Shown here piece after piece: positions 8,260 through 64,000 of a DNA stretch of 64,000 nt. A program made the translations under genes and the position numbers. The stretch is from Candidatus Aenigmatarchaeota archaeon. Lineage in GTDB: Archaea; Aenigmatarchaeota; Aenigmatarchaeia; GW2011-AR5. The notes under the pieces are model-generated. The model ran no database searches and was not told the origin of the DNA. It saw only the letters and a list, made by a program, of their open reading frames with translations. Location of the stretch: NCBI GenBank assembly GCA_041645025.1, contig JBAZQV010000001.1, positions 1,519 to 65,518 of the forward strand. The letters run 5' to 3'. Position 1 is the stretch's first letter. Each line of letters opens with the position of its first letter.

Positions 8260-8952
8260 TTACTCTATCTTAACTCCTTCAAATCTCTTTCCCGCCAGCT
8301 TTTCCCTATTCTCCTTAATAATCTGTTCTGGTATGGTTGAAGTTGTTTCTATGGACTTGCCAAGCTCTAGTCCAAGCAGATGTGTTAGAGCAGCAAGCTC
8401 ACGACCGGATCGCATGCCCCACACGGTAACAGCTGAGGATGAAGTAACTACTTTTGTCTCATATTTCTTACACAGTTCTATGTTCTTTTTCATCGCGGAA
8501 AGTATGTAAATGCGGTTTCTTTTGTAGCTTTCTAGCACCTCACGGAAGTTTATCTCAATGGCAACGTTGTTGTCGTGGGCTGCACGCACGCAGATATGAT
8601 CAAGGCCGCTGTCTTTTCTGCCAAGTTCGGGATGACACAACACGTCAATAAGCGGATTTTCACACGCAGCCCTGTTTATGTCGTAATCACCACCATGTAT
8701 CATGAGAACCTCGGCTTTAGCCCGCGCTTTTTCAGCAAGACCACTTAGTTCGTCGGGCTTTGCCACCTTCAGCATTACGGATGAAATAATGTCAATGCCT
8801 TCGACCTGTGGCAACTTCTCCATATTGCCTAGATAGTACCTTACTATGCCTATTCCTGACAATCCAAGGCGCTTGGCCATCTGTGCAACATCCTCCACAC
8901 TATTCTCGCCTATGGAAAGGCTTGTGTGAACGTGCAAATCATAGTATGTCAT
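8260..8952 (-). CDS. rnp3: RNase P protein component 3 (Rpp30, PHP/TIM barrel)
   Basis: MTYYDLHVHT... PHP-type N-terminus; 230 aa; conserved pairing with Pop5. Confidence 0.75.
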   Translation of the reverse strand: MTYYDLHVHTSLSIGENSVEDVAQMAKRLGLSGIGIVRYYLGNMEKLPQVEGIDIISSVMLKVAKPDELSGLAEKARAKAEVLMIHGGDYDINRAACENPLIDVLCHPELGRKDSGLDHICVRAAHDNNVAIEINFREVLESYKRNRIYILSAMKKNIELCKKYETKVVTSSSAVTVWGMRSGRELAALTHLLGLELGKSIETTSTIPEQIIKENREKLAGKRFEGVKIE

Positions 8953-11938: not shown

Positions 11939-12397
11939 ATGGAACTTAAAGAGGCTATAGATAGGGCTGAAAGCGATGAAGGCGTCAAGAAGCTTACGAA
12001 GTATTTCATGTGTTCCTGCTTTGTCTGCATAAAGGACATCAAAGATAAAATAGATGAATGGACACTTCTTTTTTACAATCCTGAAAAGGAACTTGTTATT
12101 GACTGCTTTGTGAATGACAAATTTGTTACACTGGGCGAGGAGACGCCACCACTGAAAGAGGTAAAAAAACCCGACTTCACTGAAGCGCATGTGACAATTA
12201 AAGAGGCACTCGAAACGGTCGAGAAAAAATTTGACAAAAAAACCATAAACGTGCTCATAACTCTTCATCAGAAGGACACTTTGGTCTGGACCATAAACAT
12301 GATAACGCCGGATATGAATGCAACTACTTTTGACATAGATGCAAAGACCGGGAATATAGTGCACGAAGAAACCACAAGTTTGATAAGAAGACTATGA
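11939..12397 (+). CDS. Hypothetical protein with a possible PepSY-like C-terminus
   Basis: C-terminal FDIDAKTGNIV resembles the PepSY motif. Confidence 0.3.
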   Translation: MELKEAIDRAESDEGVKKLTKYFMCSCFVCIKDIKDKIDEWTLLFYNPEKELVIDCFVNDKFVTLGEETPPLKEVKKPDFTEAHVTIKEALETVEKKFDKKTINVLITLHQKDTLVWTINMITPDMNATTFDIDAKTGNIVHEETTSLIRRL

Positions 12398-15005: not shown

Positions 15006-16133
15006 ATGTCATTCAGAATACCACAACCTCAAAGGATTGTAGATCTGCTTACTTTTGCTGTGGCAGATAAGCACGAAAGATACGATTTTTTGAATGCTAG
15101 AATAGGTAGCGGAAGGACGCCCTCCTCAATCGAAGAAGAACTATGGTCTATGCTGCCGCCGACCGATAGCAATGATCAAGAAGAAGTAACGCAGAAAGCA
15201 GGAGAAATAGCTAAAAGACATGGGATTGCTTTGGACGACAGGAGGATTTTCGATGTTGCCGAAAGGGAAGATCCGGAGTTTGGAAAGCGATTAAAAACAG
15301 TAAGCGTAATTAATGTCCAAAATATGCTTCAAGCTAATTTTTATCGCTCGGCTTGGAAACTCTTTGAATTGGGCAACCCACATAAATTTTCGGCAAGGTA
15401 TGATGCAGTAACACAAGTGCCTATAACATTTGATGGAAAAAGAATTGCTGTAGTTGAAACATATTCTTATGGTCACTCAACAACCTACAGAGCTGTCCTT
15501 TATCATTTAATGAGGCATATAGGAAACTTGGCAGGTGACGAGACTGAAAGTGATGTAAAATATTTGGCAAGGAAGGCTTTTGACGGCAAAAGAGTTCTTG
15601 AACTGGGGTGTGGTCCGGGATTCTTTCTTTATCTTCTGAGAGAATTAGGCGCTGATATTGTAGGAGTTGAAAAAAGAGATACTTATCGCGATCAAACAGA
15701 TGCGGCTAAGCTAAGCATACTCTATGGAGATGCGGAAAAAGTTACTGATATGATCAGGGACAAGAAATTCGATGTTGTTTTTAGCAGAAATTTCCTTAGT
15801 TTGCATGTGACTGTTGACAAAGGGCCAGATGTAATGGAAGCAGCTTACGGCGTTACGAATGATGGGGGACTTTCTTTCCATCTTATTGATTACAGGAAAA
15901 CACCTGAAGAAGAATATATGGAAATGCTGAGGTCCACATGTGAAAGTACTAAACTTGATTACGATACTTTGGTTCAAACATTCTCAATGCTGCCAGCAGA
16001 GAAAAAGGATGCACTGCTGAGAAGGAATGTGCTGAATACTTCGATAGAAAGTCTTACGCGAATTGGTTACAGGCCTCTGACAAGCTATCTTTTCGACGCA
16101 GAAGAGAATATATCAATTGCAGCAAGAAAATAA
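15006..16133 (+). CDS. Methyltransferase-domain protein (class I SAM MTase in the C-terminal half)
   Basis: VLELGCGPGFFLYLL motif I; N-terminal 190 aa unassigned. Confidence 0.5.
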   Translation: MSFRIPQPQRIVDLLTFAVADKHERYDFLNARIGSGRTPSSIEEELWSMLPPTDSNDQEEVTQKAGEIAKRHGIALDDRRIFDVAEREDPEFGKRLKTVSVINVQNMLQANFYRSAWKLFELGNPHKFSARYDAVTQVPITFDGKRIAVVETYSYGHSTTYRAVLYHLMRHIGNLAGDETESDVKYLARKAFDGKRVLELGCGPGFFLYLLRELGADIVGVEKRDTYRDQTDAAKLSILYGDAEKVTDMIRDKKFDVVFSRNFLSLHVTVDKGPDVMEAAYGVTNDGGLSFHLIDYRKTPEEEYMEMLRSTCESTKLDYDTLVQTFSMLPAEKKDALLRRNVLNTSIESLTRIGYRPLTSYLFDAEENISIAARK

Positions 16134-53041: not shown

Positions 53042-55393
53042 ATGGATATAGAGAAAAAATTAAAGGAAATGGAAGAGTCCATAAAGACCATAGCAGAGTT
53101 CGTGAGGGACCAGACGGAAAAGATAGAGGCAGAGCTTTCCATGCCTGATTATTCGGACGAGATGGAGAAGATAAAGGAAACTTTTTCTGACGAAAAGGAA
53201 TACGCGCGTCTTCAGGCGAAAAAAATCGACAAGCTTGAGGGGCATGTGGAGGTGCTTCTCAAGTCGCCCAAGGACAAGTCAATGGAGGAGAAATTCAAGA
53301 AATCCATGCAGTCCACCCGTGCTGAACTTGACAAGCTTAAGCATGAGCTGATGCCAAAGGTAAAATTCATCGAGGGAAAGATGGACAAGATCAAGGAAGC
53401 AGTGGAAGAGGTTGGTGAGCTACACGAGCTAAAGGGTCACATGAAGGAACTGGAAACGAAAATGCAGGCCAGTGTTGAAGGTGTTGAAAAACAACTCAAA
53501 GAAGTCACAAACACCAACTTCGGTGATAATTACAAAAAGGAACTGGAGAGATTGAATGAGGGAATGCTGGCGCGGTTCAAGGACAATAACGTGGAATACT
53601 TTGAGAAGCTGGGTTATATTGAACAACGCGTCAACTCGCTAACTGGAAAGGTCGACAAAACCTCCAATGATGATATCCTGCAGAAAGTCAAAAGCCTGGA
53701 CGAAAAGCTTGGCAACCTGAAGGAGTCGCTAGACGGTATTGCTGCCCTGAATCCAGAGGAGATGAAAGACCGCGTTGATTTCATAGACAACAAGCTCAAT
53801 GAGACACTTGTCAATAAGAACCAGCTGGATGACATGGAAAAAACCTTAAGGGAAACCAGGGCTGTTGCGAACAGGTTCAAGGATTTCAATGCCGAGGAAT
53901 ACAGGGAGGAACTGGTCAAGGAAATAAACGGTGCTATTGAAAATTTCAAACGCAGGGAATTCGGCAACATAAAAGACATCGGCGAGTCGCTTTCAAGGTT
54001 CAAGAACCTGGAATTAAGCGACGTAAGAAAGATAAACTCACTTGTCGAGGAGCTGAAGGGACTTGAGATAGATGATGTCAAAGCCATGAAAAACATCGAG
54101 ACACGCGACATAAGACGGCTGAGCACGGCGCTCGACGAAATGAAGGGCGTCGAGCTGGAGGACATCGGAAGGCTCTCACGGCAGCTCAAGGATGCGCGGG
54201 AGTCCATTCGCGCGGAAATTGGCAACAAGCAGGCAACAGAGGAGAGACTTGCTTCAATTGAATCAAAGATGGAGGAGCTAAAGCGGGCTGAGAAAAAATT
54301 CGACAAGCATATAGGCGACATACTTGACCAGTTCAAGGATATGGAGGCGCACAACGTAAAGGACATGGCAAAACAGCTCAAGGAAGCGAAGGAGCTGCTG
54401 GAAGACGAATCAGTGAGCAGGCAGTCGTTTGAAAAACGCGTATTTGATATTGAAAACAAGGTACAAAACTTTGAAAAGAGCACTGCAAAAACCCTCGAAC
54501 AGTTCAAGCACTTCGAAGGCGAGGAAGTGAAAAAACTCAAGCAGCTGGCTGAACATTTCGAGCACCTTGAGTCAGATGACATAAAGAAGCTCAAAGAAAA
54601 CATGGAACACTTCAGCGAGCTGGAATCAGATGACATAAAGAAGCTCAAGGAAATGGTAGCGAACTTCGAGCACCTGAAGACTGAGGACATAGGCAAGCTG
54701 AAGCAGATGGTGGAACACTTCGGCAGTCTCGAATCCGATGACATAAAGAAATTGAGGGGAGCTATGGAGCAGCTCAAGGGTCTTGAGGCGCATGATATCA
54801 GCAGCCTTACGGAGAAAATGAAAAATGCGACAGAAGCGCTGGAAGATGAATCTGTAAACAGACAATCGATGGAAAAACGCATCATGGACTTGGAATCAAA
54901 GACCGAGAAAATCGACAGCATGGAGATTCATGATATTGAAAATCTCGCCAATGAGATGAAATACGCCAAGGAAACTCTGGAAGAGGAGTCGGTGACACGG
55001 CAATCACTTGAAAAACGGCTTCATGCTATTGAAACAGACATGAGCCAGGTGCGCGGTGTAGAGGCCGGACAGGAGAACGCCGAAAAAGTTGACGTTACAA
55101 AGCTCAGCAACCGGATCCAGGATATGGAAAGCAACATGAAACTTATGACCGTCAGACTGCTTACACAGCAGCTGAACGAGTTCGCAAAGTCAATTGACAG
55201 AAGGCTGCCAAACATTGTCAGCCGCGAGGAGTACCTAAGGCAGATAGCTGACTTGAACCAGCGCATACGCACCGTGGAAGCACCGGACCTCGCACCACTG
55301 GGCGCACGCGTCGGAAGGCTGGAGAAGAAGCTGGAAGAAATAGCTGGAATGATGCGCGGTATGTACAACCGGATTCCTATTGTTGTCGAATAA
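53042..55393 (+). CDS. Large coiled-coil protein (783 aa) with tandem 18-aa repeats
   Basis: Repeats HFEHLESDDIKKLKENME / HFSELESDDIKKLKEMVA / NFEHLKTEDIGKLKQMVE ...; no TM segment or signal peptide. Confidence 0.55.
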   Translation: MDIEKKLKEMEESIKTIAEFVRDQTEKIEAELSMPDYSDEMEKIKETFSDEKEYARLQAKKIDKLEGHVEVLLKSPKDKSMEEKFKKSMQSTRAELDKLKHELMPKVKFIEGKMDKIKEAVEEVGELHELKGHMKELETKMQASVEGVEKQLKEVTNTNFGDNYKKELERLNEGMLARFKDNNVEYFEKLGYIEQRVNSLTGKVDKTSNDDILQKVKSLDEKLGNLKESLDGIAALNPEEMKDRVDFIDNKLNETLVNKNQLDDMEKTLRETRAVANRFKDFNAEEYREELVKEINGAIENFKRREFGNIKDIGESLSRFKNLELSDVRKINSLVEELKGLEIDDVKAMKNIETRDIRRLSTALDEMKGVELEDIGRLSRQLKDARESIRAEIGNKQATEERLASIESKMEELKRAEKKFDKHIGDILDQFKDMEAHNVKDMAKQLKEAKELLEDESVSRQSFEKRVFDIENKVQNFEKSTAKTLEQFKHFEGEEVKKLKQLAEHFEHLESDDIKKLKENMEHFSELESDDIKKLKEMVANFEHLKTEDIGKLKQMVEHFGSLESDDIKKLRGAMEQLKGLEAHDISSLTEKMKNATEALEDESVNRQSMEKRIMDLESKTEKIDSMEIHDIENLANEMKYAKETLEEESVTRQSLEKRLHAIETDMSQVRGVEAGQENAEKVDVTKLSNRIQDMESNMKLMTVRLLTQQLNEFAKSIDRRLPNIVSREEYLRQIADLNQRIRTVEAPDLAPLGARVGRLEKKLEEIAGMMRGMYNRIPIVVE

Positions 55394-60961: not shown

Positions 60962-61082
60962 TGGGCTCGAGGAGATTTGAACTCCTGTCTCAAGGTACAT
61001 CGCACCTTCTTTTAGTACAGCTTTTCTTTCTAAGAAAAGGTGTCCCGAACCTCGGATCCTGACCAAGCTAGACTACGAACCC
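60962..61082 (-). tRNA. tRNA-Pro(CGG) with a 47-nt intron at the canonical 37/38 position. Exon1 61082-61044, intron 61043-60997, exon2 60996-60962.
   Basis: Minus-strand GGGTTCG...CGAGCCC acceptor, D-arm GTCT/GGAT, anticodon stem CGAGG/CCTTG, loop TTCGGG|A, T-arm AGGAG-TTCAAAT-CTCCT; the intron contains the CCTTTTCTTAGAAAGAAAAG hairpin. Confidence 0.7.
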
Positions 61083-61103
61083 TGCGAGAAATATTCAAAC
61101 TTA

Positions 61104-62087
61104 CTAATTTTTATAATTATTGCTTGGAAAGAAATTATATTTGTATTCATGAAACAATGGTGTTAATTCAAATTCTTTAATTATATTACTGAATTTATCT
61201 CTTACATTTCTGGTTAATTGAAGCACTTGGTTCCGTGTTTCGACTTCAAATTCTATTTCAAAATCCCACGAACCAACAAGTCTTATTACACCAACAACAT
61301 TCGGATTTGTTCTGAGATAATTTACTAATTGTTTTTCTTTCAATTCGGTTATATTCTGAAATTTTATAAGAGCCTTGTAACCAGAGTATGGTGTATTTTC
61401 CAAATGAATAAGTGGCTTGAATCCCTGTATAAATCCTGATTTCTTCATCTTCTTGATTCTGAGTACTACTGTATTCGCCGTTATGCCTATACTTTTAGCG
61501 ATTTCAGCAGAACCGATTCTTGCATTTTCAGATAAAAATTTTAAAATAGCTTTGTCAATTTCATCTATTTTTACAGCTCCTTGTTCTTTGATCAAATATG
61601 ATACTTTTTTAATTTCCCCTGTTTTCTTAGTGAAATAATCTCGTCCAAAATCTATAATGCTAACAGTTGTAAGAATATCATAATTTTGTATTTGTTTTGG
61701 AAACTTATTTCTGAATTTTGTAATAATCTCATTATAATGTACTATATTCTTTGCCATGAAATTAACAAGTATATCCCATCTACCGCCACAGTCGACAAGC
61801 CACAAGACGTTTGGATGTCCCTTCAAGTAAGATACAATTTCTTTATATCTATGTTCATTTATGTTGCTAAATCTAATCATCGTTCTGTAGCTTGTATAAC
61901 CCAATGCTGCGAAGTCTGCAACAGTATAAAATCCTCCTATAACGTCCCTATGCTGCAAAGAACTAATCCTGTAGCTGACAACTTGTTGCGATGTGTTAAG
62001 TCTTTTGGCTATTTGTGATAACGGCTGTCTAGCATCCTTTTCGAGCTCGTATAAAATATCCAAGTCGAGTTTGCTAAGCTTGTGCAT
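61104..62087 (-). CDS. Tandem-fused Lrp/AsnC-family transcriptional regulator (two HTH+RAM units)
   Basis: LDLDILYELEKDARQPLSQIAKRLNTSQQVVSYRI and a second KAILKFLSENARIGSAEIAKSIGITANTVVLRIKKM HTH. Confidence 0.7.
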   Translation of the reverse strand: MHKLSKLDLDILYELEKDARQPLSQIAKRLNTSQQVVSYRISSLQHRDVIGGFYTVADFAALGYTSYRTMIRFSNINEHRYKEIVSYLKGHPNVLWLVDCGGRWDILVNFMAKNIVHYNEIITKFRNKFPKQIQNYDILTTVSIIDFGRDYFTKKTGEIKKVSYLIKEQGAVKIDEIDKAILKFLSENARIGSAEIAKSIGITANTVVLRIKKMKKSGFIQGFKPLIHLENTPYSGYKALIKFQNITELKEKQLVNYLRTNPNVVGVIRLVGSWDFEIEFEVETRNQVLQLTRNVRDKFSNIIKEFELTPLFHEYKYNFFPSNNYKN

Positions 62088-62209
62088 TTGTAAAATCTAT
62101 ATAGAAAAGCTTTTATCTTTGTAATAACGAAATTTTATCTTCTATTTTATTAAGAATACAAAATTTTCACTAAATAGTTTTAAATCTTGATAAGTAAAAT
62201 AACATAATC

Positions 62210-62377
62210 ATGCCAGACGAAAGACTGCAAAACTACGAGTTGCACGAAGATGTGAGGTATGACACAGAAGGTAGAGGTAACTACCCACCGCGAATTGAAA
62301 ATACGCAAAGAGATTTTTCACTACCTTATTTCAGATTAAGACCTATCAAAACTAGTCGTGAAGCTCAAATGGAGTAA
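62210..62377 (+). CDS. Small protein (55 aa), paralog 1; candidate precursor peptide or partner of the radical SAM enzyme
   Basis: MPDERLQNYELHEDVRYDTEGRGNYPPRIENTQRDFSLPYFRLRPIKTSREAQME; below the ORF-track cutoff; shares PYF.L..I.T..REA with the next ORF. Confidence 0.35.
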   Translation: MPDERLQNYELHEDVRYDTEGRGNYPPRIENTQRDFSLPYFRLRPIKTSREAQME

Positions 62378-62382
62378 TAGTT

Positions 62383-62541
62383 ATGTATAAGACTAAAAAC
62401 TTGAGTTTTGATCCGAAGGAAATTGTAGAAGAGAATCAGCCAAGCTATAGACCAATTGTTACGTCTAGTGACGGCACTAAAGAACCCTATTTTGCATTGA
62501 AATCTATAGATACGAAGAAAAGAGAGGCCAACGTAGAGTAG
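62383..62541 (+). CDS. Small protein (52 aa), paralog 2
   Basis: MYKTKNLSFDPKEIVEENQPSYRPIVTSSDGTKEPYFALKSIDTKKREANVE. Confidence 0.35.
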   Translation: MYKTKNLSFDPKEIVEENQPSYRPIVTSSDGTKEPYFALKSIDTKKREANVE

Positions 62542-62569
62542 GCTTTGCTATTTTTCTATTGTTATAGTT

Positions 62570-64000
62570 ATGAGAGTTTCTTTTGTTAATCCACCAAATA
62601 CGACATCACTTCACTTAGCTAAACCTGGAACTTACGTGGCCCAGAACGTAGGTACTGAGTTTTTAATTTTGCCGCGTATACCATTTGAAGTTTTGGCCTC
62701 TGTGCCGCCAGATTTTGAAAGAGATTTGGTTTTGCTTGATTTTGAATGGTATAAAGAACCTAATCTGAGCAAAGAAGATTTAGTGGATATAGCAACTGCA
62801 AATCACCCAGATATAGTATGCACTACGCTTATTTCGCAAGCCAGTGCGGATACAATCCATTATTTGACTGGGCAAATTAAGCAAAGATTGCCCGATACAA
62901 AAATAGTTGTTGGAGGACAAGCTGTCTCGCACTTGGGCAGAAAAATTTTCAAATATTGTCCAACAGTTGATATAGCATCCTTGACAGATGCAAGCTATAA
63001 TCTACCGCATATTCTTGAAAGTCTACGTAATGATTTGCATCATTTATACGATATACCCGGCATAGCATATCGAGAAAATGGCGAAGTAAAAATCAACTTG
63101 GCTGATACCAAAAGAACTACAGCAAAATGGTCGCCACAAGAACTTTACGACACTTGGAAAGATAGGATTTCTGAAATAACAGATTTTGCTCATTCTCAAG
63201 GGGCATATGTATTAGGAAATATCGAGACATACAAAGGCTGTCCTTATCCATGCGAATTCTGTTTAGCAAAAGGGCCAACAAGTCCTATGAATTCTGAACA
63301 GGCAATTAGAGAAATAGAATACTTGTATGACCTAGGTATTGATAGATTTTATTTCGTAGATCTTACATTCGGACTCAACAGAGAAAAAACACTCGGCCTT
63401 CTATCAGAGTTGAGCGAATTCAGAAAAGCCCATCCCAATTTTGGCTTCCGTTGTGTAACCAGGTCTGATAGAATAGATGAAGAATTTGTAGCTTATCTTA
63501 AAGCAGCCGGCTGCTATGAAGTGGGAATTGGTGTAGAAGTTAATGATGATTCTGTCTTAGCTATAATGAAAAAGAGAACAAATGAAAATCAGCATTCAAG
63601 AGCATTAGAGGTTTTAGGCAAAGAAGGTATAGCATTCAAGCTATTTTTAATAGAAGGCTATCCAGGCTCGAGTTCAAGAACCTCTAAGAAAACTTTTGAA
63701 TTGCTAAATTCTGTTGAAAATCAAGGCTACAAATATTTCATACAGCCTGCGCTGAGCAGAAATCTTAATCCTGAATCGCCTGAATTTGTATCAAGAGAAC
63801 AGAACAGCCAGTTCACGACTGGCACAATATATCAGTTAGATTTCCGCCATGACGCAAGGCGGTACGGCTGGAACAATGACGTTTCTGTAAGAGCTTTTTG
63901 TCTGCAGCTTCTTGCATATCCATCGACAGAAATCGGAAAACAAAATAAAGATAAAAATCTTCAAAAAAGGTTGGAAATGGATCTACATTTTCTGGCAGAT
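62570..64000 (+). CDS. B12-binding-domain radical SAM enzyme (class B-like), 3' end outside the window
   Basis: N-terminal Rossmann-like cobalamin-binding segment (IVCTTLISQASADTIHYLTGQIKQRLPDTKIVVGGQAV), then CPYPCEFC (CxxxCxxC); no stop codon before the window end. Confidence 0.8.
   Translation, partial: MRVSFVNPPNTTSLHLAKPGTYVAQNVGTEFLILPRIPFEVLASVPPDFERDLVLLDFEWYKEPNLSKEDLVDIATANHPDIVCTTLISQASADTIHYLTGQIKQRLPDTKIVVGGQAVSHLGRKIFKYCPTVDIASLTDASYNLPHILESLRNDLHHLYDIPGIAYRENGEVKINLADTKRTTAKWSPQELYDTWKDRISEITDFAHSQGAYVLGNIETYKGCPYPCEFCLAKGPTSPMNSEQAIREIEYLYDLGIDRFYFVDLTFGLNREKTLGLLSELSEFRKAHPNFGFRCVTRSDRIDEEFVAYLKAAGCYEVGIGVEVNDDSVLAIMKKRTNENQHSRALEVLGKEGIAFKLFLIEGYPGSSSRTSKKTFELLNSVENQGYKYFIQPALSRNLNPESPEFVSREQNSQFTTGTIYQLDFRHDARRYGWNNDVSVRAFCLQLLAYPSTEIGKQNKDKNLQKRLEMDLHFLAD

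What the first reader, a model, noticed from the sequence alone, without database searches (positions are those of the whole stretch)
61104..64000. Fused Lrp regulator, two paralogous ~50-aa peptides, and a B12-binding radical SAM enzyme: candidate peptide-modification or lipid-tailoring cassette
Two tandem small ORFs (55 and 52 aa, both below the ORF-track cutoff) are clearly paralogous (Y..PPRI/SYRPIV and PYFRLRPIKTSREA/PYFALKSIDTKKREA). They sit directly upstream of a radical SAM protein with an N-terminal cobalamin-binding-like domain and a CPYPCEFC cluster. A double-domain Lrp/AsnC regulator is transcribed divergently. The arrangement is that of a RiPP-like precursor(s)-plus-maturase locus. 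Alternatively, because cis-prenyltransferase, GGGPS and ICMT-like genes lie just upstream, the B12-radical SAM could be a lipid-modifying enzyme (GDGT ring or tetraether synthase class), with the small proteins as partners.
Basis: partly seen in the sequence, partly recalled or inferred. Interest (0 to 1): 0.75.

Follow-up and report, generated by a model that had tools for sequence, protein, structure and literature searches.

The report
DPANN peptide-modifying B12 radical-SAM cassette
A small, self-contained gene cassette found only in tiny symbiotic (DPANN) archaea encodes one to four very short peptides that all end in glutamate, beside a vitamin-B12-type radical enzyme with a peptide-docking domain and a paired regulator; it is most likely an undescribed family of enzyme-modified peptides, not a lipid pathway.

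Summary
The window is from a Candidatus Aenigmatarchaeota MAG. It holds a fused double Lrp/AsnC gene (61104-62087, -), two small ORFs (62210-62377 and 62383-62541, +), and the first 476 of 667 codons of a class B (B12-binding) radical SAM gene (from 62570, +).

In 12 distinct related loci, all from DPANN archaea, the same three parts recur while the flanking genes differ completely. The gaps between Lrp and the enzyme hold 28 small ORFs, 1-4 per locus. Typical motif: YFxLxx[IV]xT..CExxxE-stop. The last residue is Glu in 28 of 28, encoded by both GAA and GAG. The motif matches 19 ORFs there, against 0.015 expected in shuffles, none on the opposite strand, and none in 1.36 Mb of unrelated B12-rSAM loci.

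Best reading: a new RiPP-like system in which an RRE-bearing B12-rSAM modifies the Glu-terminated tail, probably by C-methylation. The chemistry is inferred, not shown. The lipid-tailoring alternative is not supported.

The parts
60962..61082 (-). tRNA gene with an intron of about 51 nt. The anticodon, read by eye from the alignment, is CGG (Pro); this is tentative. It marks the left edge of the low-GC island that carries the cassette.
   Evidence: Rfam RF00005, 43.1 bits, E = 5e-8. ARAGORN missed it.
61063..61086 (.). Left copy of a 24-nt att-like direct repeat (CCAAGCTAGACTACGAACCCTGCG). It covers the 5' 20 nt of the tRNA plus 4 nt. The second copy (92% identical) lies 63 nt after the radical SAM stop codon, at about window 64636-64659, beyond the window end. 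A third copy (75%) lies about 3.5 kb further on.
   Evidence: the repeat finder family D2 on L001 at 8494-8517, 12067-12090 and 15554-15577. Window coordinate = L001 coordinate + 52569. The second copy is a tRNA 5' fragment, not a tRNA gene.
61104..62087 (-). Fused double-domain Lrp/AsnC-family protein (327 aa), transcribed divergently from the peptide genes. Presumed regulator of the cassette.
   Evidence: Pfam HTH_AsnC-type in two stretches (E = 2.8e-22) and AsnC_trans_reg at 37 bits. An ortholog at 54-64% identity sits in the same divergent position in every family locus.
62088..62209 (.). Divergent intergenic/promoter region. An A/T-rich TATA-like element TTTTAAAT lies at 62178-62185, about 25 nt before the ATG of peptide A. 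This would fit a leaderless or near-leaderless transcript (inference).
   Evidence: Sequence read directly. The consensus scan picked out TTTAAA at 62179.
62210..62377 (+). Precursor-like peptide A (55 aa). The YFxL recognition-like segment PYFRLRPI is at 62324-62347. The Glu-terminated tail REAQME is at 62357-62374.
62383..62541 (+). Precursor-like peptide B (52 aa). An upstream motif SYRPIVTSS is shared with the L009 peptide. PYFALKSI is at 62485-62508 and the tail REANVE at 62521-62538. It is preceded by GGAG, formed by the last codons of peptide A, 8 nt before its ATG.
   Evidence: A gene caller called it in the source contig. NCBI names it 'hypothetical protein'.
62570..64000 (+). Class B (cobalamin-binding) radical SAM enzyme, first 476 of 667 aa. 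B12-binding domain at 62729-62992, radical SAM core at 63221-63670, CxxxCxxC at 63239-63262. The two C-terminal RRE-like domains (aa ~478-667) lie beyond the window end.
   Evidence: (P0001, 100% identical, 667 aa).

Best explanation
This is a self-contained, three-part RiPP-like cassette restricted to DPANN archaea.

- Step 1 (inferred): the divergently transcribed double Lrp/AsnC protein controls the shared intergenic promoter.
- Step 2 (shown by conservation, not by expression data): one to four tandem genes encode very short peptides. They carry a conserved hydrophobic segment (YFxLxx[I/V]) followed by a short tail that typically reads C-E-x-x-x-E. In this genome the tail reads R-E-A-x-x-E. 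The tail always ends in Glu.
- Step 3 (inferred from fold): the C-terminal RRE-fold domain of the radical SAM enzyme docks the YFxL segment, as RREs dock leader peptides.
- Step 4 (inferred by analogy): the B12-binding and radical SAM domains then modify the Glu-terminated tail. The most likely chemistry is methylation of an unactivated carbon, which is what most characterised class B enzymes acting on peptides or proteins do (ApyD, PoyC-type, Mmp10, MgmA). The invariant terminal Glu is either the site or the anchoring determinant.
- Step 5 (open): no protease or exporter belongs to the cassette, so the product either acts inside the cell or leaves by general routes.

The cassette sits in variable, island-like regions. 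In this genome it lies in a low-GC island next to a tRNA, flanked by repeats of a tRNA fragment and followed by toxin-antitoxin modules. This suggests a horizontally exchanged accessory trait, plausibly involved in competition or host interaction.
For: - Synteny: Lrp(-) | small ORFs(+) | rSAM(+) recurs in all 12 distinct loci examined, while the flanking genes are unrelated: toxin-antitoxin modules, FtsZ, helicases, PheRS, integrase and AAA/RloB.
- Peptide family: 28 ORFs, 1-4 per locus. Position -1 is Glu in 28/28, encoded by GAA 17 times and GAG 11 times. Position -5 is Glu in 22/28 and position -6 is Cys in 19/28. A YF.L block lies 13-17 residues from the end.
- Motif statistics: 19 motif hits, against 0 on the reverse strand, 0.015 in shuffles, and 0 in 1.36 Mb of other B12-rSAM loci.
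- Coding signal: differences between paralogs are enriched at third codon positions (46/39/67 by position; 36 synonymous of 98 changed codons).
- Enzyme class: Pfam B12-binding plus Radical_SAM. The AlphaFold model has pLDDT 88.9 and pTM 0.89. The best PDB fold matches are TsrM, OxsB, TokK, AprD4, CysS and MgmA.
- The two C-terminal halves are related to each other (hhalign probability 88%, E = 3e-6).
- Rarity and specificity: only 22 clusters among 1.84e9 proteins carry the C-terminal module.
- Peptide divergence tracks enzyme divergence. The most divergent enzymes (P0023, P0020, P0179) have the most divergent peptides.
Against: - No modification, expression or binding has been shown.
- No protease, exporter or immunity gene is conserved.
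- The short-form peptides (19-24 aa) leave almost no room for a separate leader.
- The frequent Cys at -6 is replaced by Arg in both peptides of this window. The tail also departs from ExxxE in 6 of 28 peptides. The target residue therefore cannot be read from conservation alone.
- DPANN archaea are not expected to make cobalamin (general knowledge, not tested here).
- A subgroup of homologs keeps the C-terminal module but has lost the Cys cluster.
- The double-Lrp family is much larger than the enzyme family and also occurs without it. The Lrp is therefore not a dedicated component.
Confidence: 0.7

Rival explanations
1. Peptide-derived cofactor or small molecule, a sub-variant of the main reading. 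The peptide is a scaffold, as PqqA is for PQQ, MftA for mycofactocin, or the scaffold peptides of pearlin-type pathways. The enzyme modifies the terminal Glu or the ExxxE pair. The product is then released and used inside the cell, or sensed by the Lrp ligand-binding domains, rather than acting as a secreted peptide.
For: - The C-terminal residue is invariant (Glu 28/28).
- The cassette has no exporter, protease or immunity gene.
- An RRE-fold domain is present, as in the PqqD/PqqE system.
- An amino-acid-sensing type of regulator is always adjacent.
Against: - Several divergent peptide copies per locus (up to 4) are more typical of natural-product precursors than of cofactor scaffolds.
- No downstream processing enzymes are present.
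- The enzyme is class B, not the SPASM type used for PQQ or mycofactocin.
- The cassette is patchy and island-borne, which is unlike a core cofactor pathway.
Confidence: 0.12
2. The small ORFs are not substrates. They are small partner or regulatory proteins, or upstream ORFs that tune translation of the enzyme. The B12-rSAM would then modify something else, such as another protein (as Mmp10 and MgmA modify methyl-coenzyme M reductase), an RNA or a metabolite.
For: - No chemistry has been shown.
- The ORFs are tightly packed, with stop-start spacings of 1-8 nt, and the terminal GAG can form part of a GGAG ribosome-binding site for the next ORF.
- Archaeal B12-rSAMs that act on large proteins exist, and MgmA is among the fold matches.
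Against: - The terminal Glu uses both codons, so conservation is at the protein level.
- The last peptide before the enzyme also ends in Glu, although 21-121 nt separate it from the next start.
- The enzyme carries an RRE-fold domain, whose known role is to bind short precursor peptides.
- Peptides and enzyme diverge together.
- Copy number varies from 1 to 4.
Confidence: 0.1
3. Lipid-tailoring enzyme. The B12-rSAM would modify archaeal isoprenoid lipids (Tes, Grs or GDGT-MAS class), functionally linked to the GGGPS, cis-prenyltransferase and ICMT-like genes upstream.
For: - GGGPS, UppS-type and ICMT/PEMT-like genes lie 2-6 kb upstream in this genome.
- Several lipid-modifying archaeal enzymes are radical SAM proteins (PMC11868695).
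- There is a weak hit to the TIGR04072 lipid B12-rSAM model.
Against: - The lipid genes are absent from all 11 other loci.
- Three unrelated genes, a tRNA gene and a GC-content break separate them from the cassette.
- TIGR04072 scores 54-66 bits against a cutoff of 360.
- No lipid enzyme is among the best 50 PDB fold matches.
- The C-terminal RRE fold and the co-conserved peptides have no role in this model.
Confidence: 0.03

Closest known systems
ApyD in aminopyruvatide biosynthesis, an RRE-containing B12-radical SAM RiPP methyltransferase (bioRxiv 10.1101/2023.10.30.564719)
   Same: It is a class B radical SAM enzyme that contains an RRE and acts on a ribosomal precursor peptide. It methylates an unactivated carbon (C-beta of the penultimate Tyr) in a short conserved C-terminal motif that ends in an acidic residue (GYLYD). 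It is the second-best NCBIfam hit for this enzyme.
   Different: The score is 73 bits against a family cutoff of 750, so this enzyme is not a member. The apy clusters are bacterial and also encode an MNIO, a P450 and a methyltransferase, none of which is present here. The precursors are unrelated.
PqqA / PqqD / PqqE (PQQ) and MftA / MftB / MftC (mycofactocin) peptide-derived cofactor systems
   Different: PqqE and MftC are SPASM/twitch radical SAM enzymes without a B12 domain. Those systems have one precursor gene and further processing enzymes, and they are bacterial. Here the RRE is fused at the C-terminus and duplicated.
Mmp10 and MgmA, archaeal B12-radical SAM enzymes that methylate Arg and Gln of methyl-coenzyme M reductase
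   Same: They are archaeal class B enzymes that C-methylate sp3 carbons of amino-acid residues within a polypeptide. MgmA (PDB 9ccb) is among the fold matches.
   Different: TIGR04014 scores 50 bits against a cutoff of 360. Their substrate is a large enzyme, not a dedicated small peptide. They have no RRE module, no adjacent precursor genes and no Lrp.
TIGR03975 (rSAM_ocin_1) and proteusin-type RiPP C-methyltransferases such as PoyC
   Same: They are B12-radical SAM maturases of ribosomal peptides.
   Different: The score is 56 bits against a cutoff of 282. Their precursors have long leaders of the nitrile-hydratase or Nif11 type (from my own knowledge). They are bacterial.
Archaeal lipid-modifying radical SAM enzymes (Tes, GrsA/B, GDGT-MAS)
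   Same: They are radical SAM proteins of archaea. This genome has isoprenoid-lipid genes nearby.
   Different: There is no conserved synteny with lipid genes and no family-level score. The peptide-binding fold and the co-conserved peptides are unexplained by a lipid role.

Membership tests
Class B (cobalamin-binding) radical SAM enzymes | CxxxCxxC [4Fe-4S] motif within a radical SAM core | tested here: met
   C224, C228 and C231 are invariant in 23 homologs. Pfam PF04055 scores 51.5 bits against a cutoff of 29.5.
Class B (cobalamin-binding) radical SAM enzymes | N-terminal Rossmann-type B12-binding domain | tested here: met
   PF02310 scores 36.7 bits against a cutoff of 32.1. The Foldseek top hits are TsrM, OxsB, TokK and CysS at E = 1e-16 to 5e-22.
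Class B (cobalamin-binding) radical SAM enzymes | Cobalamin actually bound and used (methyl transfer or other chemistry) | not testable with these tools
   This needs purified protein, spectroscopy and an activity assay.
RiPP biosynthetic cassette (precursor peptide plus RRE-dependent maturase) | Small precursor gene(s) adjacent to, co-oriented with and co-conserved with the modifying enzyme | tested here: met
   28 peptides in 12 loci. The motif is enriched against all controls.
RiPP biosynthetic cassette (precursor peptide plus RRE-dependent maturase) | RiPP recognition element (PqqD-like winged helix: three strands plus three helices) | tested here: met
RiPP biosynthetic cassette (precursor peptide plus RRE-dependent maturase) | Demonstrated post-translational modification of the peptide | not testable with these tools
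   This needs co-expression and mass spectrometry.
RiPP biosynthetic cassette (precursor peptide plus RRE-dependent maturase) | Dedicated leader protease and/or exporter (common but not obligatory) | tested here: not met
   No conserved neighbour exists beyond the three parts.
ApyD family (NCBIfam NF050148) | Score at or above the curated cutoff (750 bits) | tested here: not met
   53-73 bits.
PhpK-family P-methyltransferases (TIGR04479) | Score at or above the curated cutoff (600 bits) | tested here: not met
   81-100 bits. This is the best NCBIfam hit, but it covers only the generic core.
RiPP maturation rSAM C-methyltransferase (TIGR03975) | Score at or above the curated cutoff (281.85 bits) | tested here: not met
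   44-56 bits.
Lipid-modifying B12-radical SAM enzymes (TIGR04072; Tes/Grs class) | Family-level sequence score, and conserved linkage to lipid biosynthesis genes | tested here: not met
   TIGR04072 scores 54-66 bits against a cutoff of 360. Lipid genes occur only in this genome's neighbourhood.
Lrp/AsnC (feast/famine) transcription regulators | AsnC-type HTH followed by a RAM/AsnC_trans_reg ligand-binding domain | tested here: met
   Two HTH_AsnC-type stretches (E = 2.8e-22). PF01037 scores 37 bits against a cutoff of 25 in the first half; the second half shows only faint hits. DNA binding was not tested.
Siroheme decarboxylase AhbA/AhbB/NirDL (Lrp-like enzymes) | Score at or above the curated cutoff (125-140 bits) | tested here: not met
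   AhbA scores 35 bits and AhbB 28 bits. The Pfam NirdL-like_HTH hit of 29 bits covers only the HTH.

The most novel reading that the evidence does not exclude
The cassette may be a closed peptide-signal circuit rather than an antibiotic pathway. In this reading the B12-radical SAM enzyme modifies the invariant C-terminal Glu tail. The modified peptide, or a Glu-derived fragment released from it, is then the ligand of the adjacent double Lrp, whose RAM domains normally sense amino acids. This would give genome-reduced DPANN symbionts a mobile, self-regulating signalling module for sensing population density or a host, and one that depends on cobalamin obtained from that host.
Probability: 0.1. 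Interest if true: 0.85.

Novelty: new variant of a known kind. Interest (0 to 1): 0.62.

Why it matters
To my knowledge, no ribosomal peptide natural product has been characterised from DPANN archaea. The archaeal RiPP survey I read lists only generic class predictions for them: YcaO, sacti/ranthi-, lanthi- and lasso-type (PMC12144867). None of my literature searches found this cassette.

This is a compact, well-delimited system of about 3.5 kb with three parts. It has unusually short precursors (19-24 aa in most loci), an invariant C-terminal Glu, and a radical SAM subfamily so rare that only 22 clusters exist among 1.84 billion proteins.

It is directly testable by co-expression. It could reveal new class B radical SAM chemistry on a Glu-terminated tail. 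It also raises a question: why do organisms with minimal genomes, which probably must import cobalamin, keep and exchange such a module? The answer bears on how these symbionts compete or communicate.

Tried and rejected
- The metagenome-contig scan with the family alignment returned only generic B12-rSAMs at 28% identity or less, because a generic Cys-motif pattern dominated. It added no family loci.
- The genome-contig scan found only 5 true family loci among 185,579 species representatives.
- The viral-contig scan with the C-terminal module found nothing.
- ARAGORN missed the intron-bearing tRNA. Rfam with gathering filters also missed it when run on the larger set of loci.
- The closest relative (L005/L165, 88-91% enzyme identity) has a run of N exactly over the peptide region. 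A close-pair dN/dS test was therefore impossible.
- A profile search with the peptides recovered only six gene-called peptides, five or all of which are sequences already in the query alignment. All are unnamed.
- PADLOC gave no defence-system assignment.
- I tested whether the double Lrp is a dedicated component and rejected the idea. The family has at least 243 clusters. Two members on long contigs have no rSAM or motif peptide nearby. Cassette-linked copies are scattered through a crude NJ tree.
- I considered an AhbA/B- or NirDL-like enzymatic role for the Lrp and rejected it on scores.
- No att-like flanking repeats were found at the other loci.
Full report
**What is in the window**

Four features lie between 60.9 kb and the window end.
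- A tRNA gene with an intron of about 51 nt (60962-61082, minus strand). Rfam scores it 43 bits; ARAGORN missed it.
- A 327-aa fused double Lrp/AsnC gene (61104-62087, minus strand).
- Two small plus-strand ORFs of 55 and 52 codons (62210-62377 and 62383-62541).
- A plus-strand ORF from 62570 that runs off the window after 476 codons.

Pfam assigns the long ORF a B12-binding domain (aa 54-141) and a radical SAM core (aa 218-367), with CPYPCEFC at 63239-63262. The Lrp has two AsnC-type HTH domains and a RAM domain. The two small ORFs have no hit in Pfam, NCBIfam or PADLOC. BLASTP aligns only their last 18 residues (56% identity, E = 4e-4).

**Source and full-length enzyme**

The enzyme fragment is 100% identical to a 667-aa protein (P0001) from a Candidatus Aenigmatarchaeota MAG, on an 89.5-kb contig. 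About 26 homologs at 34-91% identity, most of 644-683 aa, come from Nanoarchaeota, Woesearchaeota and Aenigmarchaeota assemblies. Below them, identity drops to 28% or less with generic B12-rSAMs. Only five loci were found among 185,579 species-representative genomes.

**Conserved cassette**

I retrieved 12 distinct loci: the window (also held as L001/L002), L003, L004, L006, L007, L009, L166, L168, L170, L171, L172 and L173. Every one has the same arrangement: double Lrp on the minus strand, a 240-550 bp gap, then the radical SAM gene on the plus strand. The Lrp is 54-64% identical across loci, even where the enzyme is only 31% identical (L009). L003 has four tandem Lrp copies. Flanking genes share nothing between loci. 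They include toxin-antitoxin modules and Fic, FtsZ, helicases, PheRS, an integrase and resolvase, AAA/RloB, and NTP-transferase/HEPN. The unit is thus exactly these three parts, and it has no conserved protease, exporter or lipid gene.

**The peptides**

Gene callers mostly left the gaps empty. Scanning them on the enzyme's strand gives 28 small ORFs, 1-4 per locus.
- Examples are MEKLYFELEKVQLNCEANVE, MEENYFSLKKITTENCEADME, MEKEYFTLEKVSTQNCEFMGE and MVNINEWCILGIASLNCECRME. The window's two end in ...PYFRLRPIKTSREAQME and ...PYFALKSIDTKKREANVE.
- Counted from the C-terminus, position -1 is Glu in 28/28, -5 is Glu in 22/28, -6 is Cys in 19/28 and -14 is Leu in 15/28. Tyr-Phe dominates at -17/-16.
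- The terminal Glu is encoded by GAA 17 times and GAG 11 times, so the constraint acts on the amino acid and not on a DNA motif. Some GAG codons also form a GGAG ribosome-binding site for the next ORF.
- A motif regex finds 19 ORFs in the gaps. It finds none on the opposite strand, 0.015 per shuffled set, none in 1.36 Mb of unrelated B12-rSAM loci, and only these two ORFs in the whole 64-kb window.
- Differences between paralogs favour third codon positions (46/39/67 by position; 36 synonymous of 98 changed codons). This is modest but points the right way.
- Longer forms (window A and B, L006, L009) share a second, weaker upstream block: N/S/T-Y-x-P-I. L009 has TYIPIVTSS and window B has SYRPIVTSS.
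- The public protein collection holds only six of these peptides as called genes, all unnamed.

**The enzyme**

The AlphaFold model built on the family alignment is confident (pLDDT 88.9, pTM 0.89). Its best PDB matches are class B radical SAM enzymes: TsrM, OxsB, TokK, AprD4, CysS and MgmA. No NCBIfam model comes near its cutoff. PhpK scores 100 of 600, ApyD 73 of 750, TIGR03975 56 of 282, the TIGR04072 lipid enzyme 54 of 360 and MgmA 50 of 360. This is therefore an undescribed subfamily.

All long members share a C-terminal extension of about 190 aa, which lies outside the window.
- Modelled alone it has pLDDT 84. It has a four-helix half followed by a half with three strands and then three helices.
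- Sequence-level support is weak. Pfam PqqD gives E = 0.034 in the first half. PDB profile searches found nothing. Foldseek E-values are not significant.
- The two halves are related to each other (hhalign probability 88%, E = 3e-6), so the module looks like a duplicated RRE-type unit.
- An exhaustive HMM search finds this module in only 22 clusters among 1.84 billion representative proteins.
- The divergent L009-type enzymes (about 557 aa) keep only the second half, the part with the full RRE topology.

**Genomic setting in this organism**

The cassette lies in a low-GC stretch (0.33-0.40 against 0.43-0.48) that starts near the tRNA and runs about 8 kb. A 24-nt sequence covering the tRNA's 5' end (window 61063-61086) recurs 63 nt after the enzyme's stop codon (92% identical) and again about 3.5 kb further on. 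It brackets first the Lrp-peptide-enzyme unit (3.57 kb) and then a block of toxin-antitoxin and Fic genes. The second copy is a tRNA fragment, not a gene. This looks like serial insertion at a tRNA gene. Other loci show no such repeats, though several lie beside integrase, defence or toxin-antitoxin genes.

However, they lie outside this island, beyond three unrelated genes and the tRNA.

**The Lrp**

It belongs to a large DPANN family of fused double Lrp proteins: at least 243 clusters at E < 1e-20, with 120 listed at 53-96% identity. Two members on long contigs have no radical SAM gene or motif peptide nearby. Cassette-linked copies are scattered through a crude neighbour-joining tree. The enzyme always comes with such an Lrp, but the reverse does not hold. 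The simplest reading is a locus-specific regulator drawn from a common family. AhbA/B-type enzymatic Lrp-likes are excluded by score.

**Interpretation**

Four independent lines point to peptides that are substrates of the enzyme:
- strict co-conservation of the peptides with the enzyme;
- tandem, variable-copy short ORFs with a conserved docking-like segment and a conserved tail;
- an RRE-fold module fused to the enzyme;
- the absence of any other conserved partner.

The class B architecture makes C-methylation of an unactivated carbon the most likely chemistry. The closest functional analogue is ApyD, an RRE-containing B12-rSAM that beta-methylates the penultimate Tyr of a precursor ending in Asp (10.1101/2023.10.30.564719). 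Class B enzymes also catalyse other reactions, so the chemistry remains an inference. The invariant terminal Glu is the best candidate for the site or the anchor. Cys at -6 cannot be essential, because both peptides of this window have Arg there.

Several points remain open. The fate of the product is unknown. It is unclear why short forms lack a separate leader. It is unclear how the two C-terminal domains divide the work. The meaning of homologs that have lost the Cys cluster is also unknown.

**Novelty**

Literature searches found no description of this cassette. The archaeal RiPP survey I read mentions DPANN clusters only as generic class predictions and does not mention B12 enzymes. I rate it a new variant of a known kind: a RiPP-like system with a new precursor family and a new class B radical SAM subfamily, restricted to DPANN archaea.

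Noticed in passing
window 60962-61082 (-): A tRNA gene with an intron of about 51 nt. ARAGORN does not report it. Rfam finds it only with the permissive E-value filters. The anticodon, read by eye, looks like CGG (Pro).
   Followed up: partly
window ~60570 to beyond 64000 (L001 8001-16000); repeats at L001 8494-8517, 12067-12090 and 15554-15577: A low-GC island of about 8 kb next to the tRNA. Its two successive units are the cassette and then MazE/PemK, Fic and PIN/VapB modules. Repeats of the tRNA 5' fragment lie at the island's left edge, between the units, and inside the second unit, which suggests serial insertions. A separate 60-nt repeat (82% identical) lies at L001 12011-12070 and 12740-12799.
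   Followed up: partly
proteins P0169, P0174, P0175, P0176, P0177: Homologs of about 500 aa keep the C-terminal tandem RRE-like module. Their N-terminal part has no CxxxCxxC motif and no Pfam radical SAM or B12 hit. They may be catalytically dead peptide binders. Their gene neighbourhoods could not be fetched.
   Followed up: partly
L003 784-5449 (-): Four tandem paralogous double-Lrp genes (54-58% identical to the window's) lie upstream of one cassette, which itself has four peptide genes.
   Followed up: no
L172 3325-3486 (+): A 53-aa peptide contains two copies of the YF.L...C motif in one reading frame (MENRYFVLENIPIDEC... and ...ESYFELETVTINGCECKIE). It looks like two precursor genes fused by loss of a stop codon. 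A 53-aa peptide hit from the profile search (P0181) is seen on 43 contigs; whether it is this peptide was not checked.
   Followed up: no
L009 5762-7674: A divergent cassette type. The enzyme has 557 aa and only the second (full RRE) C-terminal domain. Its single 65-68 aa peptide lacks YF.L but ends in ...TYIPIVTSSRAE, which matches the upstream block SYRPIVTSS of window peptide B. The relation between the two peptide motifs and the two C-terminal domains is unexplained.
   Followed up: partly
window 53042-55393 (+): A 783-aa, highly charged protein with many internal repeats of the type ...HFE.LESDDIKKLK... It looks like a coiled coil and has only a weak DUF3106 hit.
   Followed up: no
L174 3592-4896 (-): A 434-aa protein with no Pfam hit is transcribed divergently from a 'free' member of the double-Lrp family. 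The family may therefore regulate other unknown divergent genes.
   Followed up: no
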